DNA of 64,000 nucleotides, taken from positions 23,058,647-23,122,646 of the forward strand of contig NC_081387.1 of NCBI RefSeq assembly GCF_030684315.1, written 5' to 3'. The stretch's first letter is position 1. Every line of letters starts with the position of its first letter. Made by a program: the position numbers and the translations under genes. The stretch comes from Stegostoma tigrinum. Lineage: Eukaryota. The notes beneath the pieces were generated by a model. It ran no database searches. It saw only the letters and a list, made by a program, of their open reading frames with translations, and was not told the origin of the DNA. Shown piece after piece: positions 21,333 to 58,376 of the stretch.

Positions 21333-22517
21333 TAAATCTATGGAGTGAATTTGTATTTGTAGATACGTTATAGTTTTGGGTCTATTTAACACATCCTCAT
21401 CAGTGCTGTGGCTCTTTGATCTTTTACTATAAATTCTGTGTCTGATTCCTCCTCTCTCACCAACACCTGCGGGAGCGAGGCTTGAAAGCTTCTGTTTTCA
21501 AATAAATCTTTTGGATTAAACACCACACATGATGGTGTGTGATTTCAAACACTATACTCATATAATTTCATTCCATTGAACTCCTTTTGTCAGGAATGCT
21601 GCTTCACATGTTAATTTGTCAAAAGAGTTGTCAGCACTTTGAAACTTAATACATGCTTCTCTCTCAAATGACTTCCCAGCACAGACTGAAAAACAAAGTC
21701 AGAGTCTGGAAAGATCTGCTCTTGTATCGTGAGGCTGTGGGGGAAGGTTAGATAGGAAGAAACTGTCCCACTTGGTGGAAGGATCAATAGGAAGATTGAG
21801 AACAGGTTGAAGGGAAAATGGCATTGGGAACATGATGTTCTGAAATTCAGTGCCTGACAGTGTGGTGGAGGCAGGGACATTTGAAGGATCTGTAGGGATG
21901 ATTAGAATGGGTGGGTGTCACACAATAAACTTCTCCCGTGGAGAGCTGCACATGTGTGATCAGGTCCTGCACTCTAAGCATTTTGTGATCCTGTGCCTTA
22001 CTGCAGATGCGGCTCCCGTGAGTCACACAGGTATTGACCAGCACCCACATACTACAGCTCCAACACATCACCTCCCTGCTGTCTCTATTGAGTTTTATCC
22101 AACTAATCAGGTTGCAAGTTTAGAAGTACCACTCAACAATATTTTGTAATTATTAGGAAGTAGTAATTCTCTAAATTTATTCTGATACTCAGATCCCTTA
22201 CTTACCATCGCAACTGTTGTCACATTAAATTAACACCCTGAGACATGCTCTGGGTCATACTCTTTCTGTTTTATTTGTTACTTACCAAATCAGAATTTTT
22301 AATTTCTCCATTAAAAGTAAAATGTTTCAAGACAGAAAAAAATCTCACTATTTCTCTCTGACACGTCTATAAGTTCTCTTGCTGAGTGTGGTCACCTGGA
22401 GGTGATGCATTAATTTTAATAACATTAATGATTTTCGGTGAGTTACAGTTGAAAGAGCAACTTGCCCGCAGTGACACATTTGTTCGAAGGAGGGAGCAAA
22501 AGCCAAAGAGCGAATTC

Positions 22518-22641
22518 AGTGAAAACGAAAGTAAATATTTTCAGGGAGGGGCTGTCGTTGTGAATGTCTCCATTTTTTACACATTTGTCCGAGAAAAGGC
22601 GGAAAATGTTCGATCAGATTGTGGGAAAGTAAGAGGTGAGT
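22518..22641 (+). promoter_or_regulatory. ISRE promoter-like cassette with first-exon splice donor (copy B), 6.3 kb upstream of the BTN ATG
   Basis: AGTGAAAACGAAAGT (22518-22532) and donor GAG|GTGAGT (22636-22641), both conserved with copy A. Confidence 0.55.
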
Positions 22642-22907
22642 CCCAAATCCTCTTTAATTTCAGGAAGGGCTCATTCCCAGTGGGATCGGGTGGATTTTAG
22701 TCCCGCTGAAAGATCCCAATCAAATCCAAGGAGTTGAACGGGGAGCCGCTGGGGATTGTGCAGTGAAAAGGTGAAACCTTTCTCCAGTGTCTCTGATCAG
22801 CTGCACAGAGCCTGGAGCTGGTTCCTGTCAGTATAAGGGAACAGGAGGGAGAGGCAATGTCTAACATTCACTTCTCAGGGTCAGACACAGCGACTGGAAA
22901 GGGAGAC

Positions 22908-22917
22908 GGAAGTGAAA
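22908..22917 (+). promoter_or_regulatory. ETS-IRF composite element (EICE) GGAAGTGAAA; also at 2021-2030 and 58671-58680
   Basis: Exact GGAANNGAAA match conserved in three module copies. Confidence 0.4.
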
Positions 22918-24254
22918 AGGAGGAACAGAGTGAGGGCCATGAGATGGAACATGACCCATTGGGGTTTCTGTTTAAAGGCAAATAATTCAATCCTGGAGAC
23001 AATTGTGACGCTTCATGTCCTGACATAAACTTTAATTGAAGAGTTTCCCTTGTGTTGAGTCCATTCTCCGATTCCTTCTTTCCCATTTCGGGTTTTCTGC
23101 CTCCACCATCGAGAGCAGCTGCGTGGGCCCTCAGATCCGGAGCGCTCTCCATTCCTCAATCCATCAATTCCTCTCCACTTCCCTCCGCCTCCCTTCAGCT
23201 TGTTCCGAGAACCTCTCTGCAATTCTCTGCTCCTTTCAGCTGGTTCTTCAGATGTCGCTTTGACTGATCTTTTACTGAATTGATTTACATTCTGTTCGCT
23301 GCTTTCACTCTCAGTCTCTCCCTTGTTGAGCCCAGGATCTCCTGTGCTTTGCTGACTGCTCTCTCAGCATGGCCTGTCACCATCAGAGATTGATCCACAC
23401 AAACCCCCTCCCTCAGTTCCTGCTCACTCGACGGAATTGTGTCTGTAAATGGACAGTGTAATTCCTTGCTCCTTTTGTTAAAACACATCACTTCACAATC
23501 TGCTCAGTTAAATTCAATCTGTCAGTTGTCTGCGTATTTCTTTCCCAAGGATGTAAGAAAATCACTTGTGAACATGACTGTTGTTATCCATGTGTTTTTG
23601 TGGATGTTTGAATCAATGCCTGTCCTTGATGGAAACCTGGCCAAGTAGTGATGACAATTTCTCCGGAAATAAATCCTCCCCATCTGGCTGCACTTCCATC
23701 ATGAGACCCATCGAGGCTGTTCTGCTGGCCGTTTGGCCTTTTTCACACCTTTCCCTGACCCTCTGCTCTTTGGGTCCTCTCCTCCTGTTGAGCATCTCAT
23801 CTCATTTAAATTCTCATTCTAACCCATCCTTCCCAGTAATTTTCTCACTGATGGACCTTCACTGTTTTCCTCCCTCATCCTCTGCATTAAACAACTTCTC
23901 ATCTTTCTGATGAAAGGTCATCACCCTGAAACATTAACTTGCCTTCTGTCTCCCTAACAGATGAATAGATTGAGTTAATTCAGACTTTATTTTTTAATTT
24001 CTCATCATTGATAATTGAAGAATCTCCTTCTGAAATAGAATCAGATAGTTTTACAGCACAGAAACAGGCCCTTCGGCCCATTGCGTCCATGCAGATTCTG
24101 ATTCTGTTTTCCAGGCCTTGGCCTGTAGCCTTGTCTGCGATGGATCGTCGAGTGCTGATCAGAATTATTCTGAAATGTCTGAGGTTCGTGCTCTTTTAGG
24201 CAGTGAGTTCCAGATATTCATACATTCTGGGTGAAACAAACTTTCTTTACCTTC

Positions 24255-25040
24255 TAAGAAAATCCGAAAGAACTGCGGATGCTGAAAAACAGGAACAACA
24301 ATGAAGTTGCCAGAAAAGCTTAGCAGGCCTGGCAAGAATAAAGAATAAAAAAAGGCAGAGTTAATGTTTCAGGTCCAGTGATGGTGGCTGTGAAAACGTC
24401 AGTTTGTAACCACATTTTGCTGCTCACAATGTGGTCTCCTCTACATTGGGGAAACGTAGTGTAGACATAGTGACGGCTTTGCAGAACATCTACGTTCTGA
24501 TGGCAAAAAAAGACCCTGAACTACCTGTTGCCTGCCACTTTGATGCACTTGCTGCCTGACCAACATCTCTGTCTTGCTACAGTGTTCCAGCGAAGCCCAA
24601 CGCAAGCTGGAGGAACAACACCTCATTTTCCGCTTGGGGACCCTACAGCACTCTGGACTCAATATTGAGTTCAGTAATTTTAGGGCCTAAAGTCTCCCAT
24701 GTCCCAGCCCCCTAGCCCACACACCAGGCCTTGTTACCACACAGCCTGCCACTACACACTCCCTGTTGTTAGTCACTAACAGCCCCCATTAACAACTACT
24801 CACCCTCCCAGCCTGATCAATGGCAACTCCTTTGTCTGTCCAACTGTCTGTCTCTCTCTTTGGGCTCTATCCTCTCGTTTACTCCCTACCCCACCCACCT
24901 CCGTATTTCCTGCATCTCAATTGACATTTTCCCAGCCACCATCAGTTCTGAGGAAAAGTCACCGCACCCAAAACGTTAACTCTGAATTTTCCTTCACGGA
25001 TGCTGCCAGACATGCTGGGCTTTTCTGGCAACTATATTTT
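24255..25040 (+). mobile_element. Penelope-like fragment with inverted pLTR piece
   Basis: tgtggtctcctctacattggggaaac (CGLLYIGE), aagctggaggaacaacacctcattttccgcttggg (KLEEQHLIFRLG), degenerate hammerhead at 24944-24981. Confidence 0.75.
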
Positions 25041-25459
25041 TTCCCTCTTTACCTCCTCTTTCAGTTAAAGTGACCCCTGGATGAAGCGGGAGAAGAAGCT
25101 TTGCCTTATCTAACAAGTCTATGCCCCTTAAAACTTTTTACACTACAGTCAGATTCCCTGCTCAATTTTCTCTGCTTTGGGAAATCAACCCCAAACTCTC
25201 CAGACTATCTTCATTGCTGAACCACTCTAGTCCAGAAAACATCCTGGTGGATGCACTTTCACCCTCTCTGGTGCAATCATGTCTTTCCAGCACTGCACAC
25301 GTTACTCCAACTAATTAAGTAACATTATACACTGCATACCTACTTATTCATCTTGCTGTCTCTCCATTGAGCTCACTGCCAGCTAATCCTCCCTCAATCC
25401 AAACTCCCCAACCCCTCTATCCCTAAATGTAACCCAGTGTCTTGAATCTCTTCCTGCAG

Positions 25460-25584
25460 CTGGACTCGATAATGATGATTTCACTGCTCGCTATGTTTCT
25501 CGATATACTTCCTGATCAGAGTTCTTCTGCAGTGTTTGTGAAAAATATCTCATTGCGGAATAGTCTGACTTTCTGAAGCTAGAG
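25460..25584 (+). other. Candidate non-coding 5' UTR exon of the BTN-like gene
   Basis: Acceptor tctcttcctgcag (ends 25459) and perfect donor GAG|gtaagt (25585). The ATG exon begins with an acceptor, so an upstream exon is required. Contains only a short uORF ending in TGA. Confidence 0.4.
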
Positions 25585-26113
25585 GTAAGTTTCAGACTGC
25601 ATGATTTTAATGAGAATAGTTAGAAAAAGACAGACTTTCTGAACAACATAAACAGAGACAGGTCAGGAATATCAGCTCTGAGATTATATGATGAGACATT
25701 TTAACACTTGGTTGAAAGTGCATATGCCTTTTATTTCACTGGAATTATTAATTTAAATGGATTACACCCCATTTAAAATAGCAGATTGCTAAAGCAAGTG
25801 AAGATTTTCACATTTATTCTTTAATGTGATGTGGGAGTCATTGGCAAGGTCAGTATTTATTACTAATCCCTAATTGTCCTTGAACTCTGATTTACTTGTT
25901 AGAACATTTGAGACAGTAGTGTTGAGTCATCCACATTGCTGTTGGTCTGGAGTCACATGTCGGCAGGTCTGGGTAGGGACAGCAGATTTCCTTCCCTAAA
26001 GGACATGAATGATCCAGTTGTGTTTTGACCACAATATGAGTTCAGTGCCATCTTATCCTCCCTTCATCTCCCTTTCATCCAAACTCCCCAGCTGCCCACT
26101 CTTAATTGCTTTT

Positions 26114-26622
26114 AACCGCACTTGGAATACGACGTCCAGTTCTGGTCGCCCTATCATAGGAAAGATGTGGATGCTTTGGAGAGGGCTCAGAGGAGGTTTA
26201 CCAGGATGCTGCCTGGACTGGAGGGCTTATCTTATGAAGAGAGGTTGACTGAGCTCGGACTATCTTCATTGGAGAAAAGGAGGAGGAGAGGGGACCTAAT
26301 TGAGGTATACAAGATAATGAGAGGCATAGATAGAGTTGATAGCCAGAGACTATTTCCCAGGGTAGAAACGGCTAACACGAGGGGCCATAGTTTTAAGCTG
26401 GTTGGAGGAAAGTATAGAGGGGATGTCAGAGGCGGGTTCTTTACACAGAGAGTTGTGAGAGCATGGAATGCGTTGCCAGCAGCAAGGTCATTGGGGACAT
26501 TTAAGAGACTGCTGGACATGCATGTGGTCACAGAAATTTGAGGGTGCATACGTGAGGATCAATGATCGGCACAACATCGTGGGCTGAAGGGCCTGTTCTG
26601 TGCTGTACTGTTCTATGTTCTA
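26114..26622 (+). mobile_element. CR1 LINE 3' end, relatively young
   Basis: ORF 26122..26541: EYDVQFWSPYHRKDVDALERAQRRFTRMLPG...FFTQRVVRAWNALP, tail gttctatgttcta. Confidence 0.92.
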
Positions 26623-27155
26623 ACCTTAGTTCTTTGAAGGTGGCAGGATGTCGGGAGAGAGAGGTGAGTAAAGCACATGAGATGTTGGCTTCATAAACAG
26701 AGGAATTGAGTACAAAAGCAGGGAATGTATGCTAAACCTGCAGAAAACTCAGTCGGTTGGTCACAGCGACGTGAAAACTGTCTTCGTTTCTGGCACCACC
26801 TTTATAAAAGGTGTGGGGGCATCTGAGCGGTGGAAGGAAGATTTTTCAGAATGGTTCTAGGGAAGGGATTGTAGTTACAAGTGGAGCACGGGGATTGATA
26901 TAAAGAGTTATGGAGGGGAACATGATGGTTGAGTGATGGTTAAGGTTTCGAGAGCTTTCTAAACAGGAACAGAACCGGACTCCTGTCCCAGCAAATGGAG
27001 GTGAAGCTTCTGACTTGCAAACGTCAATATCAATCCACCTCTGCTGTCAGCAGCCCTCATTCCAGAGTGTACCCATCTTTTAGAGACCAAAATTCCAGGT
27101 GAATGGGCAGCACTTCCCAAATCAGGAAACCAAAAACAGGAAATATCCTGAATTA

Positions 27156-27381
27156 AGATAATAAAGTGTGAAGCTGGATGAACACAGCAGGCTAAGCAGC
27201 ATCTCAGGATCACAAAAGCTGACGTTTCGGACCTAGACCCTTCATGAGAGAGCTGTGGTGAAGGGTCTAGGCCCGAAACGTCAGCTTTTGTGCTCCTGAG
27301 ATGTTGCTTGGCCTGCTGTGTTCATCGAGCTTCACACTTTATTATCTTGGATTCTCCAGCATCTGCAGTTCCCATTAACAC
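27156..27381. mobile_element. Short fold-back Penelope-derived insertion with perfect 15-bp TSD (AAATATCCTGAATTA)
   Basis: TSD at 27141-27155 and 27382-27396. Inverted arms about 27156-27244 and 27259-27348, same family as the pLTR at 15021-15147. Confidence 0.9.
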
Positions 27382-27884
27382 AAATATCCTGAATTACTCT
27401 TCCTGAACCCAGGCTGAAAATTTAACTCATTGAATCTGTAACGGAATGGAAAGAATGGGCCATATATTTCCACTACTGGGAATGGGAATGAATAAATATA
27501 CAATGCTGTGTCTGTTGGAAGTTTGACACATGCTGTGTATTTGTCCAGGAAGTGTCAGTGTCTGATGAGCTGATTTGTGCTGCCTGGAACCCTCCAATGA
27601 TCTCAGTGTCAGAAACTTGGTTGAGATACACACCACATATTCAGATACATATCTGACAATTGTCGTATTGTTCAACTTCCAGTGTAACTGTTTAGTTAAC
27701 AGTTTAACCCAATACCTCATTGTTCAAAGCAACAGAATACCCCTTGACCTATCTACACCCCCGACACTCCAACTTCCCAATCATGAACTTAGCAAAACAA
27801 GGAATCAAAATGGAGAATGGGTTTGTTGCCTGAAGTTGGTGAACTGTTGTGTTGAGCCCAGAAGGCTGTAAGGTACGTAATTGG

Positions 27885-28305
27885 AAGAGGAGTTGGGACG
27901 TGTAGTTGAGGTTGTACAGGACATTGATGACACCTCTTCTGGAGTAATGTGTGCAGTTCTGGTAATGGGAAGGATGTTATTAACTGAGGAGGGTTCAGAA
28001 AAGATTTACCAGGATGTTGCTGGGAATGGAGGGTTTGAGATTTTAAGTTAGACTAGAAAGACTGGGATTTTTTTCACTGGAGCATGGGAGGTTGAGGGGT
28101 ACCTTATTGAGGTTTATAGAATCATGCAAACTGCCAGAGGAAGTGGTGGATGTGGGCCCAGTTACAACGTTTAAAAGACATTTGGAAGTACATGAAGAGG
28201 AAAAATTTGGAGGGATGTGGGCATGGCGCAGACAAGTTTAGGTTGGGACTATGGTCAGCGTAGACTGGTTGGACCAAAGAGTCTATTTCTGTGCTGTATG
28301 ACTCT
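27885..28305 (+). mobile_element. CR1 LINE 3' fragment with internal deletion
   Basis: gtgtgcagttctgg, agatttaccaggatgttg, cttattgaggtttata. Confidence 0.75.
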
Positions 28306-28903
28306 CCAATTACCCTCTTGCACCCTACTCACTCACCATTATTCTCTCTCAAACACTATCCTACAACCCAGTTTGCATCCAACTTTAAAATAAGAAAAAG
28401 TTAGGGTGTAGACTACCTTCTCAAAATATTTTGAGGGCGTCTGGCCTGGTCTATCACAGCAGCGATGGACCCACCCAGTGTTCCTGATGAAATACAGGAC
28501 CTTTACAATCTGACCTGACAACAGGATCTGATGTTGGAAAAGGGGTCGTCCATCTCTGCTGCTCCCCACTGTCAGTTATCTCCTGAATCCCCGAGCTGAG
28601 CATTTGTTAATGCAGCAGAGAAAGAAAACCCATTAGGAAAAACATGGAAAAGTAAGAATATGCTGATCGTTGCTGACATAGAATGATGGAGGCCTTTAGC
28701 ACAGAAAAAGGCACTTCAGCCCATCAAGCCTGTGCATATCACCCAAATCTTCTAATCGCAGCACTTGGCCTATGGTCTGCATACCTTGTTGGCAGCGATA
28801 TGTATAATATCATCATCAGACAATCTGGCTCATTATGTCAGTGTCTCAATCCTGTAGTTGACATTGCTCTTTTAAGAAATATCTTGAGAATTTTTTGTTT
28901 CAG

Positions 28904-28991
28904 ATGAGATCCTTCAATCACTTCTTGCCCATGATGCAAGGAAGACATTTGAGTATTGTGCTGCTCCTTGGTTTTCACACTGTGCTGTCAG
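28904..28991 (+). CDS. BTN-like signal peptide exon (MRSFNHFLPMMQGRHLSIVLLLGFHTVLS)
   Basis: Acceptor ttttttgtttcag directly before ATG, hydrophobic core LSIVLLLGF, donor G|gtaagc in phase 1 matching the IgV exon. The start could instead be the ATG at 28931 or 28934. Confidence 0.8.
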
Positions 28992-31900: not shown

Positions 31901-34900
31901 AACTATTCCGTGTGTAAACAAGGGCACAGTTAAAGTTTCTTTTTAAAATCTTTGTCTCTTTTTTGTATTTTTCAAACAAGTAGTTTTTTTTGGTGGAATT
32001 AGTAAGATAAAAAAGCATTTTTTTGTGTGTCCTTTAAAATATCTTCCTGGAGATTAAATCTGTTCATCTGGCGAGAATTCTGACTTTGCTATTTTGTATT
32101 TTGCCAGAGATATTCCATGTGTTTGTACCAGACTATCCCATCACAGTCTCTGTGGGTGAAGATGTTGTACTGGATTGCCAAGTAGTCCCAGATATATCTC
32201 TGGATACTCTGGAGGTTCGATGGTTTATATCAAATTCAGCTTCACAAGTTCATTTATATACCGGTGGGCAGGACCGACCTGATGTACAAGATAAAGGTTA
32301 TCAAGGGAGGACGGAACTGTTTAAAGATGAGCTTCCTCGTGGAAATGCCTCTCTGAAACTGAAGAAGATAGAAGTGTCAGACGAAGGGATTTACACATGT
32401 TTCATTAAGTCCAAAACACACCATGATCAAGCAGTGATAGCTCTGAAAGTTGCAGGTTGGTCTTTCTCATTGTAAAGTGCAAATGATCACTGAGTATAAT
32501 GTAATATTCAGAATATAACATTTTTAAACCATGAATGGGAAATAATCAACTGCATTCCATTGGAAAATGAAAACAACAAATCATTTTCTGGAATATTCGA
32601 GATGTCAGTAAATAATTCAAACCACTAGCTACAGCTCAAGCTGAAAATGATGGAATGCATATAAAATATATGATTAGGAAGCCAAATGCAATGTTATTCC
32701 TTGCGAAGGAAAATGAACTATAAAAGTAGAGGTGATTTCTGTAATTGTACAACGTTGTTGTTGTGATTGTAATGAAGTCAGGCAGTTTGTGAGTGCCCAG
32801 ATTGGGACTGTTAATCTGGTCCAATCAGGGAGCTCTAACTGACAGATAAAAACAGGAGTGCCAGAGGTTCTGTTCATTCTGGGAGCCACCTCTGAGGTAA
32901 CTAGATCAGTGGCACATACTGTGCAATAGAGAGAGACTTGGTGACAGGGTACCAGCCTCTCTGGAGTTATACCAGCAGGAACGAGAGTAAAACATGTCCC
33001 TGAATAGATTTGCTCGCAGTAGTCATCTTTGAGTTGGGCTAAACATTTTTGGCATCATGTGCTATTTGGGAAGCTGAACCTGTTTGATCCTGCTGTTGAA
33101 GACTGAACCCAGCATGTGCAAAATCAGCAGTTTTTATTTCTTGGTAAATGATACTGTGACAGGTGAAAAGCAGTGAGTAATTCTTCTGACAGTTTGTAGA
33201 CCTGCAGCTTTTTCAGTTATTAGGAGCCTATCTTTCCCTGAGGCTTCAGACACTAAAATTTCTCAAGAGTTGATAGATTTATTTAAGGAATATTATGACC
33301 CCATGTCTCCTGTAACTCTGAGACACTATTGGTGTTATTTGACAGTTTGAGACTAGGAGAAACCGTGATGGGATTTTTGATGAGATTAAGGTGAGACTGG
33401 CAGAGACATATGATTTTGGTTTAGCTGTTAATGATGTCCCGAGAGGCTGTTTGATATGTGGGATTAATGATGTAACCATGCAAAGGTGCTGACTAGCTGA
33501 AGCCCAACTAGACTTCAAACAGGAACTACAACTGGCTTGATCATTTGAAAGTGTGACAAGTGGAGCTTTTGAGTTACAGGATGTTCTGATGGAAGTGGAC
33601 CCTCTCACCAGGCTGTCTGACTTTGGGGAACAGCACTTGAGTGAAGACAATTGCACAGCCTCACTCAGTTCAGGGAGCTGACAGAGGGACTGTCGGTCAG
33701 ACCACAGCAAAATCCAAAACAAAAGTGGGCCTTGGCCAAGCAGTTAAAATCCCGTTCAGGATCCAGGCTGGCAAGCCATTGTAGCTGCTGCCTGGTATAC
33801 AGACACAAGACACCAAAAGAGACCCACGAGGCCTAAATTGAGTGAGAGAGTTTATGGAGAGTGCAGACCCTGAAAAGTCCACCTGCATCTAGTTTGGAAC
33901 AGTTAAATTGCTTTGCAACATCCAATTCCGAACCAATCAAAATAAACGTCTGGTGAAATGGTCACCCAGTTCTCATGGAGGTCCATAGCAGTTCGGTTAT
34001 ATCAGTGTGGCTGTATCAATGATTACAGAACCAAACTTCGATAAAATTCACTCCAGACTTTAACCCTTCACTTGGTGTAAGGCCTCAGCTTGACTGAGAA
34101 CCTATACTGGGGAACCTTCACGGATTAAGCTTGCCCCTTCGGTTCTGGTCTCTTTCGATAAGCATCCGGTTCAGTTAGTTACTACTGATTGCAGTAAAAG
34201 GTACTGGCTCGATGGGGAGAAATTGGTTGAGAAAGATTGACCTTGAAAAGTGCAACATGTTTTGATTAGCAAATGGCTGTGAAGTGAAATCTGAATTAAA
34301 TACTGGAAATTTTTCAGGGAGGTCTGGGGACTGTCAGAGGAGCCAAGGCCACCCTTGCATGTTGACCAGGAAGTAATTCCTTGATTCTGCAAGGCTCTCC
34401 CAGTGCCATATGCCTTACATGTAGAGGCAGAAATCTGTAGGCTGGAAAGTGAAGGTATCACTAAACCAGTACAGTTAGTGGAATGGGCAACAGAGGTTGC
34501 ATTGACTGTGAGGCACCAATGGGTCAGTTCGCTTTTGTGAGGATTTCAAACAAATTAGATTTCCTACAGTGTGGAAACAGGCCCTTCGGCTCAATAAATC
34601 CATACTGCCCCTTGCAGCATCCTACCCAGACCCATCCCCCTCTAACCCACACACCCCTGAACACGACGGGCAATTTAGCATGGCCGATCCACCTAGCCTG
34701 CACATCTTTGGACTGTGGGAGGAAACCCACATAGACACGGGGAGAATGTGCAAAGTCCACACAGACAGTTACCCGAGGCTGGAATCGAACCCGGGTCCCT
34801 GGCGTTGTGAGGCTGCAGTGCTAACCACTGAGACACCGTGCTGCCATAAATGGTAAATCACTCCTCGCAGCTGGATAAATACCCAGCCCGTCATGTCGGG

Positions 34901-37900: not shown

Positions 37901-40900
37901 ACATCAGAAAGTGGGCTTCAGACTTACGATCCTCACCAAGTACATTGATATCATGGAGAACAAGAAGGAGAACAAGCACTGCTTCAGGATTTGAACCAGT
38001 AAATAATGCGACAAGGTGATATTGAAGATTCATTGTTGAAATTTATTGCGGAAGGAGTCCATTCAGTCCCTTGAGTCCACTCCATCCCTGTAACCCTGCA
38101 TTTCCCATGGCTAAAGCACCTATCCTGCACAGAACACCTGGAGGAAACCCTTGCAGACATAGGGAGAATGTGTAAACTCCATACACAGTCACCTGAGGAT
38201 GGAATTGAACTTAGGTCTCTGGCACTGTAAGCTAGCAGTGTTGACTATTGTGCCACCGTGCTGACCAAACTGCTTGATAAGGAAGCAACCCTTCGCTGTC
38301 CCTGCTGTATTGCTGTTTGGGGAAGCTGGGCTCGCTGGGGTTGCCATACCTATACTGGGCAGCTGAAACATTGTTGTGTCTGTGATAAATCCAGTCATGG
38401 TGCAGCTAACTACTGCATCACATGGACGTTCTGCAGGTCAGAAGGCCATCAACCAAAGGACTGCAGCCTGTATATTGGCCACTTCTCCAAGACCTGCCTA
38501 AAACACTGCGTCTGTTTTGCACAAGTCGCAAGAGAAAAGGAATATAGATACAAGGGCTCCTAGAGGCTGACAGCAGGGAATCTCTGTGTGCATCAGTCAT
38601 CTCTCAGTAAAGCCCAGCTCCAGGAGCAGGGAATCCCTCAGTAAAGCCCATCTCCGGGAGCAGGGAATCCCTCAGTAAATCCCAGCTGCAGGATCAGGGA
38701 ATCCTTCAGTAAACCCCAGCTCTGGGATGAGGGTATTTCTCAGTAAACCCAGCTCTGGGATTAGGGAATCTCTCAGTAAACCCCAGCGCCGGGAGCCGGG
38801 AATCTCTCAATAAACCCAGCTCCAGGATTAGGGAATCTCTCAGTAAACCTCAGCTCCAGGAACAGGGACTCTCTCAGTAAATCCCAGCTCCGGGATTAGA
38901 GAATCTCTCAGTAAACCCCAGCTCTGGGAGCAGGGAATCTCTTGATACATAATAATCCATCCAGCAGAACAGTGCTATCTGTGTATCCTAGGAGGAATTA
39001 GAGACGGGTTGTGGAAAAATACAAGAGGAAGCTGTCGAAAGATGGTCAGTGGTGAGGAGAGTTTCCGGAAAGAGCTTAGCAATACTGGGGGATGATGTTT
39101 TTGGCGTTTGGCTGTGTGATCATGGATTGTAGCTGAATGGCACATCCTCTGCCTATCGGAGGCGATTCCACTACACACCCTTTGGGCTGTGTTTCTGGAT
39201 GTGTTTGATATTATCAGAAATGGAACTGAAAACAATAACATCACAGCGGCAGATGTTGATGAAGGGATTCAGTGAAGTTGAGATGAAGGAGTCGAGAAAG
39301 ATTGAGAATAGGATAAAGGATCTGATTCAGATTCATTGTTATCCTTCTGGCTGAGAAACAGGGGACAGGCCTGGTGGTGTTGACATTGGCCATTTTAACA
39401 TTATCACCAACAGTTAAATTATTCACACAGGCAAGGCAAGGATAGTTCTATATTAATGCACAGAACAGTACAGTGCAGGAACAGACCCTTCGGCCCACTA
39501 TGTCTGTGCTGACCATAATGCCACTCTAAACTAATCGTATCTGCCTGCACGTGGTCCATTTCCCTCTACTCCCTGCTTGTCCATGTGTCTGTCTGAACCC
39601 CTCCAAAAAGTTGCTATTTTGTCTAAGCATCTGCTTCTATCACCTCCCCTGGCAGCACAGTAACCTCCCACCCTCTTTGTAACAAATATGCCTCACACAT
39701 CTCCTTTAAACTTTCCCCCTTCACCCTGAAGCTATGTCCCCTAGCATTTGACATTTCCAACCTGGGAAAATGACTCCAACTACCCACTTTATCCATGCCT
39801 CTCATAGTTTATCTACTTCTATCAGGTCTCCCGTCAGTTCTGATGCTCTACTGAAAATATTCCAAGTTTGTCCAACGTCTGTTTATTGCTAATACACACC
39901 AATCCAAGCAAAATGCTGGAAAACATTTTTTGCATCCTGTTCAAAAACACATCCTTCCTAACGTAGGACAACCAGAACTGCCCATTATACAACTGAGTTT
40001 CATGAGTGTTAGGACATTGTTGTTCTGTGTAGAAATCTAGGCTGTAAACTCATCTGCCTTACCTGTTAAACTGCTTGCATTAACATTAATACTATTAAGA
40101 TCACCAGTCCCGCTGTGTTCATTAACCTGATCCTGCCTGCTCTTCCAATGAGACTGATGACTTAACCTCTACCTCTTCCGCAATCACTCCACATGGTGAC
40201 CTACTGCCCACCCTCTGCCCCTCACCCCGCCACACTGGACTGAAATGACTACGTACTGTTGAAATTAAACATTTAATAATTTAAAATGAATATAAGTTTG
40301 AATAAGTGACTTTATGCTAATTGCAGAGTTTGGACAGCGGCCTTGGGTTGATGTGGAGGAGAACAACAAAGGACTTTGTGTTGTGTGTCGATCAGACGGA
40401 TGGTATCCTGAGCCACTGATACAGTGGGTAGATGGGAAAGGAGATGCGACAGTACAGTCTGAAACAGAATTCATTCAGGACCCCACAGGCCTCATCACTG
40501 TCCAGAGTCGTATTAATGTCCAAAGTGATTCTGTGAACAAGTTTTCATGTTTCATAGAAAACCAGTTATTGAGCAAAAGACGAGAGGCCCATCTCCAGAT
40601 ATCAGGTAGGTGTGTGTTTGGTAATCATTTGATGGGCGATATTTCTCCCCCCCCCCCCCCCTCCCCACCCCTGAAGACACTAACTCAGACTGGGTGTGAA
40701 TCCACGAGCACTGATTTGTCTCTGGACAATACCAAGAGGCAGCTTTTCATATTTGAAGCTGAAACATTGAGAAGTGAGTAGACTATCCACAGCACAGCTT
40801 CAGCTGGGCCTGATGTGTACTTACCCAATGTCCACATTTCATATTCCAGCTGTGGTCACTGGATAGAGATTAGGACCAAGGACACTAAGTACTGTGCTTT

Positions 40901-43900
40901 TGGCTGACTGTTATTAAGAGAGACAAATGTTTATTCATAACAGCACCTGAAATCCAAATGAATCTCAAGTTCTTTCAACAAAAATTCTTAATAGCAATGG
41001 TATTATTTACTTGTATGTCTTGGGAAGGAATCAGTAGCTGAGATTATTCCTGAAGGTTGATGAAATTATGATACTTTGAAGAAAATCCCAAATATTTGTT
41101 TCATAGGTTTGTGTCTTGCAGATCAAATACTGATTCTGTTCTTTTTAATCTTAGATGAGTTCTTCCCCAGAGTCAATGCTTGGCTTGTATGTTTCTTGGT
41201 GTTTCTTGGCCTTGTGATTGCGGCTATTACTATTGATGTAATAGTCCACAGAAAAGAAGATGAAAAGATTAAAGGTAGGAGCAAAATAGACATTTAAAGC
41301 TTGACATTTGTGGACGTACATTAAGGTTGAAATGAATTATAATTGTAACAGTTTCTGAATTATCTGAAAATTATTCTGAAATGGAAAGAATGTAATATGA
41401 ATGTGAAATTTTAATTTTTTTTAGCTTTCAGGATAATCCCTTGCTTAGCATGCTGCTTCTCTGCAAAGGAAGAAAAGTTATGTTAACTATCTCTGAGACA
41501 GAATAAGCCCTTTATTAAAGTTTCATTTTGGGACATGAGACTAAATGGTTAGACCAGCATTTATTGCCCATCTCTAGTTGCAGTTGAGAAGGTGGTGTTG
41601 AGATGTTTTCATGGTCCGCTGCACTCTGTGTAATATGGGTACATTCACAGTGTTTTATTTCTGTCACAGTGTGATATAACTGAGTGGCTTCCCAGGCCAT
41701 CTCAGAAGGCAGTTCAAAGTCAAACACTTTATTATGGGCCTGTCTGACCAATTTCCTTTCCTGAAGGATATTAGTGGAACAGTCAGTAACTTCATTCCCT
41801 CCACTATCTAAACTCAAATTGTGATTCAATCAGTGGTTGACCCCTTCAAACAAATTCGCTCTGAGGATGGAGTCAGTCAGGGATGGAGTGAGAAATCTGC
41901 AGGATGTGTGTGTGTGAACTTGCTGAGCAGTGAATTGGGGAGCAAGGCATGTAGGATTGTGCGATGTACTCTGTAAATAAATGTTATTGGTTGTAATAAA
42001 TTGGGACAGCAACTCAAAATTGTCAGAAAAGTCAGATAGGTACAGCCTCCAAAGAACATGATACTTTTTGGAAAATTAATGCCGTTCAGTACAGCTACAG
42101 AAGATAGATAGGGTACGATATGTAGAAAGGTTAAGACTGTTTTACCATGTGAATGAAATGGCGCAGTAGGTGAAAGAAAGTGATTTTGTTAACTGCATAT
42201 TGGGCACAGATTCCAGTCCGATTCGAAACTTAACATCCCTGAAAGTCCCTGATATCGAAATATTTTCAAAGATTGTAGGCCTTACTCAAAGGACACTGTC
42301 ACCCTAAGCCCCCAATGTGAATTTAGAACATTACCACTTTAATTCATGGGAGAGCCCCTCATGGTAAGAATCAAGGAGATTATGGAGCATTGTGATTTTG
42401 GACCAACTTTAAATAGGAGATTGCCATGCAATCATCCAAAAGAAGCTTAGTAAAAATTGTAAATGGATTTTAGAAGGTTGCTGGAGATTAGTTTAGGCAT
42501 GGAGAGTGTGGAGAAGGGCGAGCAGGAGATACAAAGTGCTTTGAGAAGCACAGCCCACCAGTTCGGATGGGAAACTGCAAGCAACAGTGGTGGTGTCCGG
42601 AGTGAAGGTGCTGGTGAAAGCAGGGAATGGATCCAGGAACCGGAATAGCCAGAGTGTACAGAAGGTTAAACCAACAGCCTTGGACAGGCCCTGAGGGTGC
42701 AGAGTGTTTCCAGTGTGGGGGAGGCCAACCTCCATAGCAGTGTTTTCAAGAAGGAGCTCACCTTCTGATGTTGAAGAGCACTGGGACCAGGCTGACGACA
42801 TGTGTAGGTTGGGGGTGAGCAGTGGCTGGTGGGCATTTACATGAATAGGCTCAACAGTGGCTCCAGTGAGGTACTGTCAGCAATGCCCTCAGCCCAGTGT
42901 CTGGTCAGGGCCCATGTTTAATGTGGTGTGATTAGCTCCAAGAGATCAAATTAAATTAACCAGAGACTTTTAGCATCAGAGAGGGTGAAGGGGGTCACAC
43001 AATCCAGAAGCTATCCCTAGGTTTTTCAGAGTTAGGCCTGTGCTCTGTGTGTTATTGGAGAAGTTGGAGATGGAGTTGGAGAGAATGAAAAGACCTTGGC
43101 ATCATTCACCCTGTGTGATTTTCTGAATGGGCAGCACCCATTGTGCCAGGAGTGTAACTGGATAAGTTCATTCCCATCTGTGGGGATCACAAGCTGGTGG
43201 CTATGATGTGGCTGGATAAGCATCTCGTTTCCAACAGGAAGATCGATATGGGAACGCAGCTGGGGCGGGGGGTGGGGGTGGTCAGACATTCTCAGAGTTG
43301 GACATGACTCATGCCGAGCAGCAGCTGGAGCTGTCAGAGCCTCACGGGAATATGTGACTATTAACACCCACAAGGAGTTGTATCAATTTACTCACTTGTA
43401 CTGTCTTCCAAAGAACCACGGAGAGCTTACTGCAAGACTTGCCAGTTATTGTTGTGTCTTGGATAATGTATCAACTAACCTCTTGTAAAAGAGCATTTGT
43501 TGATTTTGGGAGAAATATGAAGGAGTTCCCAGGAAGCAGGAGTGGACCTTAATAGAGAAGCACCTTCCAGGTTAATGAGGTGGTTTGCTTGGGTTATCAG
43601 GTGGATGCACAGGGTTTGCACCCCCATGGAGGACAAGGTGAGAACAATCAGGGAGACACTGGCCCCTCGGAATATCTCTGAACTCAAAACCTTTCTAGGA
43701 ATGGTTAAGTCCTGTGGGTGATTCCTCCCAAGCCTTTCCACAATGTTAGCGCCACGACAAAAATAACGAAAGAAACAACAGGGCCTGGGTCGGACCACAA
43801 ACTGAGGCTTTTAAACAGGTCCAGAAGGTGCTTCAATTATTGTGTTTCCTGGTTTGCTTCAACCAGCAAGATATTACTGACATCCTCATATGGTGTTGGG

Positions 43901-46900
43901 GCAGTTTTATCCCACACAATGGATAATGGGGCAGATAGACCTGTGGGAAATGCAGCAAAAATACTGTCGGACGCAGAGAAGAGCTATTTGTGAATAAGAG
44001 AGACGACAGAGCAGTTATTTGTGGCAACAAAATGTTCCACCAATATCGAGACTGGAGACATTTCATCATGTGGTGACAGACCACAAGCCACTGTTGGGAA
44101 TATAAGGTGATTTGACCAATAGCTTTGGCCTTTGAACATTGTCCTGAGACCTCAATAGCCAATGCTGATGCCCTCATCATGTTCCCTGACCAGAGATAGG
44201 CACAGGCCCCACAGTGTCGGAAGAGATGGGAATGGCCATGAATTTTCAAACTACTTCATCTGTTTTAGCTCAACAAAGTAAGTACTGGGCTAACAGAGAC
44301 CCACAATTCTCAAAGGAGAAGCAGATAATAGTGTGTGGCTGGCAAAACAAAAGATTTTTTAAAAGAAATTAAACCTTACAAGTTGGGGAAAAGTGAGCTT
44401 CGTTGTGAGCATGGTATTGTCCTTTGGGGATTGAAGGCTTTTATTCTTGGGTCGGAAGAAATTTGTTCCTGAAATATTTACAAAAGACGTATCCGGGTGT
44501 ATTTAAAATGAATAAAATGGTTTCAGGAAGCTCTGTTGGCAGTCTAGCATTGAAGCAGCAGTTAAAGATGCGGTAAAGTGCTGTGATCAGTGCTAATTTC
44601 AGCAGACGTTACCCGTCCCAAGCCCACAATTGTGAGGTGAGTGACAGTCCTTGATATCAAGGCTGCATTCGACCAAGTGTGGCATCGGGCTGCTGTCACA
44701 AAATTGGAATCAATGGGCAAACTGACTGCTGATTGGAGTCATACCTGACGCATAGGAAGATGGTCATGGTTTGTGGAGGTCAGTCAGTTCCAGAACATTT
44801 CTGCAGGATTTCCTGAAGGTAGTGTCCTTGACCCAACCATTTTCAACTGCTGCATCAATGATCAAGCAATTGACCAGAGGAGATCCAATCAGTGATGAAT
44901 ATTGTTGAAATAGCAAGGCCTTATGAATTGGAAAGATTAAAATCCATATGTCCAAGTGATAAAGCATGGATAAAGAGGACAGCTAAACAACTGAAGATCA
45001 TGAATATGTACCAGAAATATAATCCCATCACTGCCTATGTTTCACCCCAATGTGCATTAAGTGATGTATTTAACTGAACAGTTTTGTTGAAATTATATCA
45101 TGATGAGAACGTCTAGTGAAAGATGAAAAACATCATTTGTAAATTCTGACAGATCTTCAGATTGAGATTTAGAATGTTAAAATGTTGTTCTGATCCCAGC
45201 TGATGGTTTTCTGGACAAGTCTGAACTGTGTTCTGTTTGTGTCCCGATGTTGCTGCTATCGGGTGCGGCGGTAGCTGCAGAATCTCACTCACTAACACGT
45301 TCCTGTGTTCTTGTCTTTCAGAACTACAGGAATTCCTCACTTTGGAAGGTAAGTTATTTCAGAACCATGTCAGGATTCTGATTTACAGACACTGAGTAAG
45401 AAAATTCCAGTTTCACTTCATGGGAATCCAGGAATTCTGAACAAAGAGGATGGAATTTTATAAGGGTCTGAGCGCTGTGGTCTGTGGTGAGAAATTGATG
45501 GAATTGTGTGAGGTGTCCATTGAGACCCATTTCAATGTCACTGCCTGGCATTGAGGTGGGATTCTCACAAAGCTGCAATGTGTGTTGCCTATGAAAGGGG
45601 AATATTGCGAATGAACGACCATATTAACTGCATACCTCACCTCATTAATATACAGCCTTCTATCGCACCAAACCTGTCAGACAGGCAGGATACTGAGAAT
45701 TCTCGACATGGAGATCCAAACATGTACCTGCTGACTTCAGCTCACTGCTCACTCCAAAGGGATCTCAATGTTGGAAATTAGACACCAACCTCTCAGGGCA
45801 TGCCGCATGTAACCCATGTCCATGGACATTGGCATCCAACATGTGCCAGCCTTGAAATACCCTCATGGCACATCTCCAAACATTGTAAAACTGCTGCTTG
45901 GACACTGTCCACTCAGAGGCACACACCCAGCTCATGGACTGGGCGAAACTGCATCGCTGGGATGTTTACTTGTTCTTTTAACCCTCACTCACTCTCAGCT
46001 TATCTGGATATTAGCAGCATTCCTGCTTTTTCATTAACATTTACTCCTTGTCCCTCAGCCAGAGATACAATGCTCACAGTTCTGCTGTTTAACCGTTTAG
46101 TGGAGACACGGAGCCAAGAAGCTGGTCAGATTGTCAGCAGAACACAGTCAAGCCAAGGGAGGTAGCCTTCAGCCAGAGGATATGGTCAGTCAGTAGCATT
46201 ACCCCTCATTAGCTGTGAGGGATCAACTATCAGCTAGTACCCCACCCAGCCATATGGACACTTACTGACTAGTGGGGACTGTTTTCCTCCTGAATGGGAG
46301 AGAGGTAGTTGTTAATGGAGACGAAAGTGCTCTTACTGTTGGTGTAGGTGTGAAGGTGTCCTGAGGAAATGTGTTGGCAGCACAGAGAACAAACAGGGTT
46401 TGTGGTGTCAGGTGTTGGTGTGGGTGATGGAGAGTGAGTGAAGATGTTCCAGTCCGTGGTAAGTGTGGTAAAGCATGAGCCTTGGTGGGAGGTGGGTGCA
46501 GCAGCAGAGACAGAGTGAGTGTGTGGTCATGGAGAGAAGATGGTGGATCACATGGTGGTGGAGAGGAGAATGTCGCTGATGTGCTGGCAGTCCTCCAGAC
46601 GCTGAGACTGTACTCACCCATGTGCCACCCTCTGACCAGGCAGGGACTGGCATCATGACCATCTCGGCTGGTTCTGGGGGAAGAGGGTATCTACACCACC
46701 CCGTCCAGCGGGACCGTCCGGTTCCTCTCTGCTCCATCTGGGGAAGATGGCAGGAACTGTATGGGGCAGCTGCAGGCTGACAGACCTGTCTGGCTGCACA
46801 ACAGCTTTGCAGAGATGGCACCGCTGCCAGGGATCAGGTCAGTTCTGAGATGTCCCAGCAGTGGCGAGTTGCTTCAGAAATGGTGGGTGGTAGGATGGGG

Positions 46901-49900
46901 CTAGAACTGAATGTGAGGCTCGTAGTGACATGGTCTGTTGTTAATGGGGTGAACGACATGGAGAGAAATAGTCCATGAAACTTGATGAAACTGATTGTTA
47001 ACCAAAAAAGGTTAGATTCAGCCCAATGTTCGACAATCCGATTTGCTTTTCCCTGATTAATCTCCGTCAATGGCCGAGATGATTTCACATGCCTGTGAAC
47101 TTCACACCCTGTTATAGTTAAACAACATCCCTCAGCAGTCCTGACTGGGTGTGCAGTGAGTGAGATGTTGCTCCTTCATCTTTGGGACTGGGTGGCTTAA
47201 TGGGGCCAATCCTGTCTTTTTGCGTTTTGAAACATTTTTGTACATTGGATACAAATATGTTGTATCGCAGAACCATCAAGTTTTTTTTTGTTTATCATTC
47301 TCCAATATTATGAAATGCTCTTTCACTGTTAGCTGTTGATTATCACGTGATTAGATATGGTCCTTTTCTGGTGCAGATAGTTTGATACAGTGCTTCTTTA
47401 ATTAAAATTTTTGTTATCTTTATGTCATTATTCTTTACTATTTCTTGAAAGATATGCTTCGAGTGAGAGGACAGAATACAGAATGAAAGAGCGCAATGTC
47501 CTGGATCAGTGAAAACAACAAACTAATTTCATCATTATTCTGTAATCTTTAATCTCTTGTATCATTTTATTTACTTTGCATGTTTTCTCTTTTTTTAAAA
47601 CCTCTGATTTTTGTTTCTTTGGAGAATGAGTTTAGAGAGGTTTTGCTGATTGGTTACTCTGTCCAAGGTAACAACTGAGCAGAATGCTACTTGATCTCAC
47701 TTCCTCCCCAGTTAGCCAATGAAAAGCAGGAAGAATCTCCACACGACAATCAGAATCTGACTGTCTGTCCAAGGGACATGTGACCACAAAGAGCCCCTTT
47801 CAAACATGCACGAAACAGGTGGAAGTAGCTTGATGGATAGGTTCGGCTGTCAGAGTTTTCAGCTCCCGATGTGTCACTGGGACAGAGTTGGAATGTAATA
47901 ATCATGGGCCGATCATGAGATAGAAATACTGTCAACACTTCCCAATATTCCAGTCCCAGTTTCCGATCAATGTCAGTCTTTACATCAATGGGATAATTAT
48001 TCTGAAATGAACAGAGCATTTGAACAAAAAGAGAACCTAAACTGCTTAGGCAGCATGTTTGGAGAGAGAAACCAAGATAATGTTTCAGGTCAGTGACCTT
48101 CGGGAAAAAGAGACGTATCAGGTCTTGAGCAAATGCTGGCCTGAGGTCAGGGGAAGGGACAGTGGGGAAGGGGGAAGTGCGAAAGGAATGAAAGGTTCAT
48201 GACAGGGTGGAAAGCAAAAGTGATTCAGTAATGAAATGGACAATGATGTAAAGCATCATTGGGATTGTGCACTGGAAAACAAGTCCCTTTATTCCTGGAG
48301 TCATCACAAATGTTCAAGATGTTTAAAAGTATGCCAAGTTCCCCAGTTTACCAATCTTTCAGACCAAGATTGATAAAAAGCACAGAACAGGTTTCTGTAC
48401 ATAAGTAAATAGACTGTAGCTGCTGGTCAAACATTCTGAACCATTGGCATGGGGGAGATGATGGCTTAGTGGCAGTATTAGTGCACTGTTAATCCAGAGA
48501 CCCAGGAAATGTTCTGGGGACCCAGGTTTGAATCCCACCAGACTGTGGATGGTGGCAGATGGTGGGGCTTGAATGCAATAAAAAAAATCTGAAACTAAGA
48601 GTCTAATGATGTCCATGAATCCATAGTCAGAAAAACCTAGTGGGGTTTTCAGTGGGGAACATCCTAAAGGAAACTGCTTTCCTTATCCGGTCAGACCTAC
48701 AGTAACGTATTGACTCTTAACGGCTCGCTGGGCAATTAGCAATGGGCAATAAATCAGCTACACCCTCATCCCATGAATGAATAAAAAACATGAATAGCTC
48801 AAATCGCATAATAAACTGCCTTGTATACCTTTCCTCTCTCTCCAAAAACACACAGAAAAAGAAAACATGGGTGTTCATGTTCACAGAGAGCTGCTGACTC
48901 TTGTGCTATCTGAACACTGCTCTTGATCGTCCTTCTCCAGATGCTTTCACTGGTTTGCAGGAGACCCAGATTGTACAGGTCACACTTATAAAAGATCCCT
49001 GACTTGTTTGTTAAAGCCGTAACTTACAGAAAGTGCTGAAGGAAAAATAAACAAATACTCTTCAGGCTGGAAATGAGTTTTGTTGCAGGAAACGGAGAGA
49101 ACTTCTGAGCTGATGAAGATCCGTTGATGTCTCTGTATCTTATTCAAAGTCCCAAGCTACATCTGGTTCTGCATCTTTTCCTGCTGCTTGAACCAGTGAC
49201 TGTGTAAACAGTGCTTACAGTCAGATGGTTGATCGGTGCTGCAAGAACAGTAAATGTTGGAGATCTGAAATAAAAACAGAAAGTGCTGGAGGAACTCAGC
49301 AGGTCTGGAAAAGTCTGTGGAGAGAGTGGAAAACAAAATGAATGTCACATTCATGATGACTCTTCTTCAGAATGTGTGTGTTCCATAGAATGGCAATATC
49401 AAACTCGAATGGTGCGCTTTGTCCCTCTCGACACAAACGATGCCAAACGTGCTGAATTTCGCTTATAGTTCCTGTTTTTGTATGAGATGAGACTAAAGGG
49501 AAATAGTAGGATCATCGCCAACTGCGACTGTCTAAAAAAAGTGATTTTCAATATTCTTGTTCCACACAGGTTTCAACAAACTGGAAATAAATCGTGGTAA
49601 GTACAGAACTAACATACAATTCAATAAAACTAACCTGAACTGACAATAGATATTGAAGAATACTTCTCATTGGAAATCTTATTTAACTCGGCTTTTCATT
49701 TCTGCTGAAAAATTTTATTTCATATGAACGTAGAAGTTACCAATATGTCAATATTTTGTCTTCATATCGTGCATTTCTAAATAGATTTCATGAAGCTATG
49801 TGTATTTAACCATATATTCACATTTATAATTCCATGGTACTGCAGGAATGTTTTATTTGCACAGTGTTTGTGGATTGAATTCACTGATACATTCAGGCTT

Positions 49901-57635: not shown

Positions 57636-58376
57636 CATTCCTTCATTTACCCCCAGCTTCAGTCCCACCCTCCATCCCTTCACCTCTTTCCCAGTCTGGA
57701 TCTGGGATTTCTCTGTGTTTCCATTTCTCACTCTGCACCCAGAACATGAAAATCCTGAGGGAGAAATCCAACACTGACAGGGTGACAGAGCTGCATTTAC
57801 ATAGCGCTCTATTAAGCTGCCTGTGTCATTGGGGAAGGGAGTTACACAAGATCCACTCTCTCCCAGGATTTCCAGCATTCCCAGGATTTCACTCCAGTTC
57901 TCTCAACACAGATGCTGCCTGACCTGCTGAGAAATTGCAGCATTTTCTGTTTCTGGTGCGGACACTTCCCACCTTTTCTCCAAAATATATGTAGAGAGTA
58001 AACACATTCCCAAACAGCTCATCCCTGAAAGCTTTTTCTTTCAATTTTCAGTCAATTCACAAATTGATCGATGATCAGCGAATCTTTTTTAAAACACGGT
58101 ACAGGACCGCCACCGCCTGGCGGGACATGGTACTGCGGCTGTCAGTGGTTCAGTGACAATTACATCCAGCAGGTGGCGGTATTACACAGTGAAATCCTGG
58201 GGTTGGTGTCAAACAGAAATAACATCAGAAAATGCTGCCAATCCCCAGCAGGTCAGTCAGCATCTGTGTACAGAGAACCAGAAGGAACAGGGTTCAATAC
58301 TGGGCATGGTAGGAATCAGAAATTTAAAAAAAAAACAAGAGTCCAGTGACCCTTCTTCAGGACTGAAAGTCTTTGG

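What the first reader, a model, noticed from the sequence alone, without database searches (positions are those of the whole stretch)
22518..28903. Duplicated ISRE + first-exon cassette may serve as an interferon-inducible promoter for the BTN gene
Seen: the ATG exon starts directly after a splice acceptor, so a non-coding upstream exon is needed. Copy B, in the same orientation 6.3 kb upstream, has a consensus ISRE (AGTGAAAACGAAAGT, 22518-22532), a strong donor GAG|GTGAGT about 100 nt later (22636) and an EICE at 22908. Known: GAAANNGAAA binds ISGF3/IRF1, and GGAANNGAAA binds PU.1-IRF4/8. Inference: a portable promoter/exon-1 module spread by segmental duplication drives this gene, possibly through the candidate UTR exon 25460-25584.
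Basis: partly seen in the sequence, partly recalled or inferred. Interest (0 to 1): 0.7.

Follow-up and report, generated by a model that had tools for sequence, protein, structure and literature searches.

The report
Shark butyrophilin first exon with ISRE
A zebra-shark immune gene (a butyrophilin) is spliced through a non-coding exon to what is very likely a first exon carrying an interferon-type switch (an IRF site), a start that other shark butyrophilins share, so these genes are likely switched up by interferon much as human BTN3A genes are, though that response is untested.

Summary
The gene is the zebra-shark BTN1A1-like (P0003, 100%). Spliced contigs from one study join 25460-25584 to the ATG exon and IgV exon without a difference in 2 of 3 runs, and carry 28-30 further letters at their 5' end. 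A paralog's contig shows the joint 22635>25467, and another BTN contig starts with the end of exon 1 in 4 of 4 runs, one from a second species. So the ISRE block is very likely exon 1. It looks like the shark BTN family's own promoter, copied with the tandem cluster, not a portable module this gene borrowed. Copies A, C and a newly found inverted 72% copy (57959-58058) look like cluster relics. Left open: whether copy B or an A-type copy feeds this gene, where transcription starts, and whether interferon induces it. IRF-driven BTN promoters are known in humans (BTN3A); I found none reported for sharks. Verdict: real and largely as predicted; a new member of a known kind; interest 0.3.

The parts
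21376..22394 (+). upstream flank of copy B, shared with copy A (91.7%) and in part with the block at 63650-64000 (86%)
22452..22463 (+). decayed upstream IRF-like site; copy A has an AAANNGAAAST match at the same place (1565-1575), B differs at 22456 and 22458
22521..22532 (+). IRF-E/ISRE-type site (GAAA-N2-GAAA-GT), overlapped on its 5' side by a TTC-N3-GAA (GAS-like) string at 22515; binding untested
22520..22635 (+). non-coding exon 1 (3' end fixed by the donor; 5' end not mapped); holds upstream ATGs at 22564 and 22606 closed by a stop at 22630-22632
   Evidence: (joints 22635>25467 and 22636>32304; contigs over 22530-22635)
22636..23007 (+). start of intron 1: duplicated core shared with copies A and C, with a TATAA at 22832 and the EICE-like site at 22908-22917; function untested
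25460..25584 (+). 5'UTR exon 2 (stops in frame with the BTN ATG; three upstream ATGs)
   Evidence: records 20 and 29, 0 other letters
28904..28991 (+). ATG and signal-peptide exon
32108..32455 (+). IgV exon
40327..40605 (+). IgC exon
41155..41274 (+). transmembrane exon
45322..45348 (+). 27-base juxtamembrane exon
49570..49596 (+). 27-base juxtamembrane exon
56790..57334 (+). B30.2 (PRY-SPRY) exon to the stop; the seven coding exons sum to 477 codons, the length of P0003
236..3211 (+). copy A: B-type flank, two IRF-type sites (1565, 1634), intact donor (1748|1749), C-type downstream; no BTN exon found behind it
57959..58058 (-). inverted, diverged (72.5%) copy of the ISRE and 5' part of exon 1, keeping both GAAA boxes with a 3-base spacer; lies between inverted repeat arms 57888-57949 and 58226-58287
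58365..59897 (+). copy C: end of exon 1 with a dead donor (G>A at the GT) plus core and A-type downstream; no ISRE in front

Best explanation
The block at 22520-22635 is very likely the non-coding first exon of this zebra-shark butyrophilin, spliced through 25460-25584 to the ATG exon, and the IRF-type site at its 5' side likely lets IRF1/IRF2 or ISGF3 drive basal transcription and raise it under interferon. It is most likely the shark BTN family's own promoter and exon 1, copied whenever the tandem BTN cluster duplicated. Copies A, C and the inverted piece would be relics of neighbouring units (A possibly a unit that lost its gene by recombination in the shared core; C a promoter broken by a repeat insertion and inversion). 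Shown: motifs, exon 2, the splices exon 2 > ATG exon > IgV, and use of the 22635 donor by paralogous BTN transcripts. Inferred: that this gene's 28-30 extra letters are exon 1, that copy B supplies them, and the history of the copies. Untested: start site, IRF binding, induction.
For:: record 20 (X7) and record 29 (X8) lie on 25458-25582 and 32105-32455 with 0 other letters, with 87 letters between (the ATG exon), and carry 30 and 28 letters 5' of 25460. In X8 a paralog's contig joins 22635>25467, and 28 of its letters are left for exon 1. Its exon 2 begins with the same two letters as ours, so 28+2 = 30 is the overlap expected if both branch from one shared 30-mer in a graph of 31-letter words (inference). 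A further BTN contig lies with 30 letters up to 22636 and again from 32304 in 4 of 4 runs, including organism A from a second study. A contig over about 22530-22635 is listed in 3 of 3 organism-B runs, and in X7 a second one reads B's letters at all 6 listed sites. The horn-shark models P0011/P0014 begin with 14 residues that align to the last 14 codons of exon 1 in register with the donor (26 of 2000 shuffles and 34 of 1500 random segment pairs score as high): a weak hint of great age. The GAAA boxes persist in the 72% inverted copy, whose likeness to B begins at 22512. The site differs by one base from the AIM2 probe that bound IRF1 in PMC2938208, where the BTN3A3 promoter site also bound IRF1 (passages), and fits the GAAA-N2-GAAA definition used for salmon promoters in PMC11695323 (passages).
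Against: The joint 22635>25460 itself is not among the 15 joints shown (260 hidden), and the 28-30 letters were not printed. The last 30 bases of exon 1 are identical in A and B, so contigs cannot tell the copies apart. In X8 only the A-like exon-1 contig is listed over 22560-22591. B has lost the second IRF site that A has. One strict motif in 64 kb is within chance. The three organism-B runs are one study and are not on record as RNA. PMC11695323 notes salmon genes with consensus ISRE and GAS sites that show no marked induction (passage). The horn-shark match is not significant as a blind scan (score 26; shuffled best-in-window median 29) and its 14-residue length was chosen after looking.
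Confidence: 0.6

Rival explanations
1. The exon structure is as above, but the IRF-type site gives no interferon induction: it serves basal or blood-cell expression (IRF1/2, or PU.1-IRF8 through the intron-1 EICE), or is inert in copy B.
For: B has only one strict site and has lost the upstream one present in A. Consensus sites without induction are reported in salmon (PMC11695323, passage). The main text of a zebrafish ISG survey never names a butyrophilin (10.1101/693333: 0 occurrences; its supplements were not seen).
Against: Human BTN3A3 is both constitutive and raised by type I or II IFN (PMC7619554, passage), so basal expression does not exclude induction. ISRE-bearing zebrafish IFIT promoters responded and the one without did not (PMC3688568, passages). 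The GAAA boxes are kept in the diverged copy.
Confidence: 0.2
2. This gene takes its first exon from copy A (donor 1748|1749, 23.7 kb upstream of exon 2), alone or as an alternative to copy B.
For: An A-like exon-1 contig is listed in 3 of 3 organism-B runs; 5 of its 6 listed differences from B are copy A's letters. A has two IRF sites and an intact donor, and no BTN exon of its own follows it.
Against: The contig has a letter at 22578 that copy A lacks, so it may belong to a paralog outside the window; at least two other BTN transcripts need an exon 1. In X7 a contig with B's letters at all 6 sites is present. B lies 2.8 kb from exon 2.
Confidence: 0.12
3. One reading: a portable promoter and exon-1 cassette spreads by segmental duplication, stands in front of several kinds of immune gene, and was acquired by this BTN.
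For: Four copies or pieces lie in 64 kb, three without BTN exons behind them. In organism A a 2458-letter contig holds 22616-22934 at 15 differences in 319 and goes on for about 2 kb unlike the stretch laid (record 2); what follows is unknown.
Against: Every listed joint from the 22635 donor leads to BTN exons, in two species. Copies A, B and C differ about as much (92-96%) as five organism-A contigs that look like orthologous introns differ from the window (92-94% in records 3-5 and 8; 91% in record 6), so the copies are not recent. The horn-shark N-terminus hints at an older link. No protein was found that begins with a translation of the block (weak).
Confidence: 0.08

Closest known systems
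Human BTN3A1-3 promoters (IRF1 site plus NLRC5/RFX SXY module)
   Same: A butyrophilin (IgV-IgC-TM-B30.2) in a tandem cluster with an IRF-type site at its 5' end. IRF1 binds the BTN3A3 site (PMC2938208, passages); a putative ISRE and IRF1 dependence are described for BTN3A1-3 (PMC11257985, passages); BTN3A3 is raised by IFN (PMC7619554, passage).
   Different: BTN3A1-3 are described as primate paralogs, while this gene groups with shark and ray BTNs (no human BTN was in the tree), so shared ancestry of the site is not shown. No perfect CCAAT/ATTGG lies in 22200-22700. Binding and induction are untested here.
ISRE promoters of fish interferon-stimulated genes (zebrafish IFIT; salmon MHC class I L lineage)
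   Same: GAAA-N2-GAAA core near the 5' end, kept through lineage-specific tandem duplication (PMC3688568; PMC11695323; passages).
   Different: IFIT promoters usually have two or three sites upstream of the start; B has one strict site, at the 5' side of exon 1, and a decayed second one.
PU.1-IRF4/8 composite element (EICE); consensus as given in the finding
   Same: Exact GGAANNGAAA match at 22908.
   Different: It lies in intron 1; 11 such matches occur in the window; nothing here ties it to function.

Membership tests
Butyrophilin (BTN) gene | Signal peptide, IgV, IgC, transmembrane, B30.2 in one frame | tested here: met
   Pfam V-set, C2-set_3, PRY and SPRY; seven exons give the 477 residues of P0003
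ISRE/IRF-driven interferon-stimulated gene | GAAA-N2-GAAA core | tested here: met
   22521-22532
ISRE/IRF-driven interferon-stimulated gene | Site in the proximal promoter of the transcript | tested here: inconclusive
   It adjoins a block spliced to BTN exons, but contigs cannot show a start and the copy used is not resolved
ISRE/IRF-driven interferon-stimulated gene | Site conserved in related promoters | tested here: inconclusive
   Kept in A (95% copy) and, with a 3-base spacer, in the 72% inverted copy; no promoter DNA of another shark could be read
ISRE/IRF-driven interferon-stimulated gene | IRF or ISGF3 binds the site | not testable with these tools
   One base from the IRF1-bound AIM2 probe in PMC2938208; a likeness only
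ISRE/IRF-driven interferon-stimulated gene | mRNA rises on interferon, dependent on the site | not testable with these tools
   No stimulated and control runs; contigs give no level
BTN3A/MHC-I type NLRC5 promoter | S-X-Y module at fixed spacing downstream of the ISRE | tested here: inconclusive
   No perfect Y box in 22200-22700 (nearest CCAAT at 22716, in intron 1); S and X consensus stand in figures of PMC4374748 that are not held
EICE (PU.1-IRF4/8) enhancer | GGAANNGAAA match | tested here: met
   22908-22917; one independent site, 11 matches in the window
EICE (PU.1-IRF4/8) enhancer | Bound by PU.1-IRF and active | not testable with these tools
   none
Portable or co-opted promoter cassette | Stands in front of unrelated genes and is younger than the gene it drives | tested here: inconclusive
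   Listed joints lead only to BTN exons, in two species; no genome held; protein searches blank

The most novel reading that the evidence does not exclude
Shark butyrophilins are interferon-stimulated genes run from one family-wide IRF promoter and first exon that is older than the split of carpet sharks and horn sharks, so IRF control of butyrophilins either dates back to the first jawed vertebrates or arose separately in sharks and primates, and duplicated promoters (A with two sites, B with one) tune the cluster through alternative first exons.
Probability: 0.4. Interest if true: 0.5.

Novelty: new member of a known kind. Interest (0 to 1): 0.3.

Why it matters
In humans, IRF1 and interferon set the level of BTN3A, which gamma-delta T cells sense and which blocks avian influenza (PMC11257985; PMC7619554; passages). 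A shared IRF-site first exon in shark BTNs would make the link between interferon and butyrophilins testable in the oldest lineage with interferons (10.1101/693333, passage). It also gives the 5' structure of a shark BTN cluster and a ready reporter fragment. The mechanism itself is a textbook one.

Tried and rejected
No whole genome is held, so the genome-wide search for the block could not be run. The cluster look-up for annotated members could not be made. The look-up of sequencing runs: no RNA holder listed; no conclusion drawn from that. The runs laid give spliced contigs only. Start site: the bin 22148-22521 has almost no cover in the three organism-B runs (mean depth 0.08, 0, 0.23), the bin 22896-23269 likewise (0, 0.68, 0), and record 2 of X1 would begin at 22520 if collinear; contigs cannot show a start and a hole proves nothing, so none of this is counted. 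Depths were not used to assign exon 1 to copy A or B. Four of the ten listed runs were laid (X7, X8, X10, X1); X2-X6 and X9 were not. Looking for other genes behind copies A and C: 102 of the 205 stop-free frames of 75 residues or more were scanned with Pfam and gave only RVT_1 (3) and GIY-YIG (1); tblastn of 42 BTN homologs found one hit outside the known exons (E 0.029, taken as chance); exon 2 and the ATG exon have no second copy in the window. Translations of the block found no protein (0 of 42 candidates; 0 hits). A 19-base metagenome scan gave one locus, L001, that matches only over the pattern and is taken as chance. N-terminal extensions of other shark BTN models (P0015, P0016, P0021, P0029) gave no clear match to exons 1-2. 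Three look-ups of earlier findings were empty. A as a B/C recombinant: in the core A sides with B at 8 of 11 variable sites 5' of 22800 and at 2 of 9 beyond; suggestive only.
Full report
What the window is. The IgV frame at 32110-32454 is 100% identical to a protein named butyrophilin subfamily 1 member A1-like of Stegostoma tigrinum (P0003, 477 residues). tblastn and two short-exon searches place seven coding exons, 28904-28991 to 56790-57334, which add up to 477 codons. Pfam gives V-set, C2-set_3, PRY and SPRY. At least two more BTN-like genes of this species are listed with a contig of the same length (P0017/P0018, P0048). In a tree of 47 of the 48 proteins fetched (one had no long enough IgV match), P0003 sits with P0017 among carpet-shark BTNs inside a shark-and-ray clade (no human BTN included). 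No whole genome is held.

The observation. All stated features are at the stated places. The block is duplicated: B 22395-23007 matches A 1508-2120 (95.3%) and, from 22602, C 58365-58770 (95.6%). A and B share about 1 kb of upstream flank (91.7%), and A and C share 1.1 kb of downstream flank (90.6%). The motifs alone are weak. The strict IRF motif occurs only in A and B (2 matches, 0.62 expected, 13 of 100 shuffles reach 2). The loose motif occurs 10 times, GGAANNGAAA 11 times, and the exact EICE three times, all in the duplicated core. Position is what counts: 0 of 6096 overlapping 120-base windows outside the copies hold the strict motif.

Transcript evidence. Four of ten listed runs were laid on 21400-32600 at 86% likeness: three of organism B (one study, kind not on record) and one of organism A (another study, RNA guessed). 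All are contigs, which show what is joined but not starts, strands or levels. (a) Records 20 (X7) and 29 (X8) lie on 25458-25582 and 32105-32455 with no other letters and 87 letters between, the size of the ATG exon once the shared splice letters are counted. So 25460-25584 is a real 5'UTR exon of this gene in 2 of 3 organism-B runs; for X10 only the IgV piece of its contig is shown. (b) These contigs carry 30 (X7) and 28 (X8) letters before 25460; the letters are not printed. (c) In X8 a paralog's contig (48 other letters in the IgV; one listed change gives the proline found in P0017) joins 22635>25467, and bookkeeping leaves 28 letters for exon 1. Its exon 2 starts with the same two letters as ours. 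Two contigs that each begin with 28 letters plus the same two are what a graph of 31-letter words gives when both transcripts share the end of exon 1; in X7, where the paralog is barely laid, the overhang is the full 30. This is inference, but it fits both runs. (d) A further contig lies with 30 letters up to 22636 and again from 32304 in the IgV, in 4 of 4 runs, including organism A. (e) A contig over about 22530-22635 with 6 listed differences from B, 5 of them copy A's letters, is in 3 of 3 organism-B runs. A second contig has B's letters at all 6 sites in X7 and at 5 of 6 in X10, and none is listed in X8. Organism A has its own exon-1 contig ending at the donor. Against: the joint 22635>25460 is not among the 15 joints shown (260 hidden), and A and B are identical over the last 30 bases of exon 1, so the copy used by this gene is not resolved.

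Age and family range. Organism-A contigs that look like orthologous introns are 91-94% alike to the window (records 3-6 and 8), about the divergence among copies A, B and C, so the duplications are not recent. Two horn-shark models (P0011, P0014) start with 22 extra residues; the first 14 align to the last 14 codons of exon 1, ending at the donor. As a blind scan this is not significant (5 of 127,918 positions score as high, two of them the ends of A and B, but the shuffled best is higher). As a directed test against exons 1-2, 26 of 2000 shuffles and 34 of 1500 random segment pairs reach the score. I count it as a weak hint.

The other copies. A sensitive search found a fourth piece that the finding does not mention: 57959-58058 on the minus strand, 72.5% alike to 22512-22612, with both GAAA boxes kept and the spacer longer by one base. 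It lies between inverted repeat arms, and copy C holds the rest of the exon from about the same point, with a dead donor. The simplest reading is one promoter broken by a repeat and partly inverted (inference; the two halves differ in likeness to B, which would need later homogenising of the core). Copy A has B's upstream flank and C's downstream flank, as expected of a unit that lost its gene by recombination in the core (inference; one search is only suggestive). A keeps a second IRF-type site at 1565-1575, where B has two changes. No exon 2, ATG exon or IgV copy follows A or C. The flank begins again at 63650, as a next tandem unit would.

Mechanism. Most likely, transcription starts near the IRF site, exon 1 splices to 25460, then to the ATG exon, and IRF1/IRF2 or ISGF3 bound at 22521-22532 gives basal output and raises it under interferon. 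The splices from exon 2 onward and the use of the donor by BTN paralogs are shown. The link of exon 1 to this gene and the use of copy B are inferred. Binding and induction rest on likeness: the site is one base from the AIM2 probe that bound IRF1, and the BTN3A3 promoter site bound IRF1 too (PMC2938208, passages); it fits the GAAA-N2-GAAA definition used for salmon promoters, where some genes with consensus sites are not induced (PMC11695323, passages). The EICE lies in intron 1 and has no support beyond its match.

What is known. IRF1 and NLRC5 control of human BTN3A1-3 is reviewed in PMC11257985 (passages); IFN raises BTN3A3 (PMC7619554, passages); ISRE promoters kept through tandem duplication are described for fish IFIT genes (PMC3688568, passages). 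The SXY consensus of PMC4374748 is in figures I could not see (passages only). Searches (listings and abstract starts) showed no paper on shark BTN promoters or their interferon response; the library lacks most subscription journals. In 10.1101/693333 (passages) the main text does not name a butyrophilin, but its supplementary ISG tables were not seen and may. PMC11372145 (one passage) names btnl2 as a marker of a shark T-cell subset.

Verdict. The 'portable cassette' framing is better replaced by 'the family's own promoter, duplicated with the cluster'. Interferon induction is likely but untested. It is a new member of a known kind; interest 0.3.

Noticed in passing
window 57959-58058 (-) with 57888-57949, 58226-58287 and 58365 onward: An inverted, 72% copy of the ISRE and 5' exon 1 lies between inverted repeat arms, next to copy C, which holds the rest of the exon with a dead donor; it points back at the BTN 3' end and could start antisense RNA.
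   Followed up: partly
window 236-4363 against 21376-23007 and 58771-62781: Copy A joins B's upstream flank to C's downstream flank (also 4184-4363 with 62589-62781, 71%), as if a tandem BTN unit had lost its gene.
   Followed up: partly
window 63650-64000: The upstream flank of the module starts again (86%), so another copy, probably another BTN, may follow just beyond the window.
   Followed up: no
window 22564-22632 and 25472-25493: The 5'UTR holds five upstream ATGs; the two in exon 1 close at a stop just before the donor, in the frame that seems to be open and coding in two horn-shark BTN models.
   Followed up: partly
window 22515-22523: A TTC-N3-GAA (GAS-like) string overlaps the 5' side of the ISRE in A and B; such strings are common by chance.
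   Followed up: no
window 22616-22934 (X1 record 2): A 2458-letter contig of organism A holds the intron-1 core at 95%, with 96 unlike letters before and about 2 kb unlike letters after; a possible donor lies at 22929|22930. What it joins is unknown.
   Followed up: no
window 23008-23600 (-): B leaves the A/C sequence at 23008; the following frames look to me like a LINE ORF1 fragment (recalled likeness; Pfam gave no hit).
   Followed up: no
window 38599-38942: Tandem array of about five 68-base units in the IgV-IgC intron.
   Followed up: no
window 20748-21181: Assembly gap (N run) followed by a microsatellite, just upstream of copy B's flank; the A-to-B distance is therefore uncertain.
   Followed up: no
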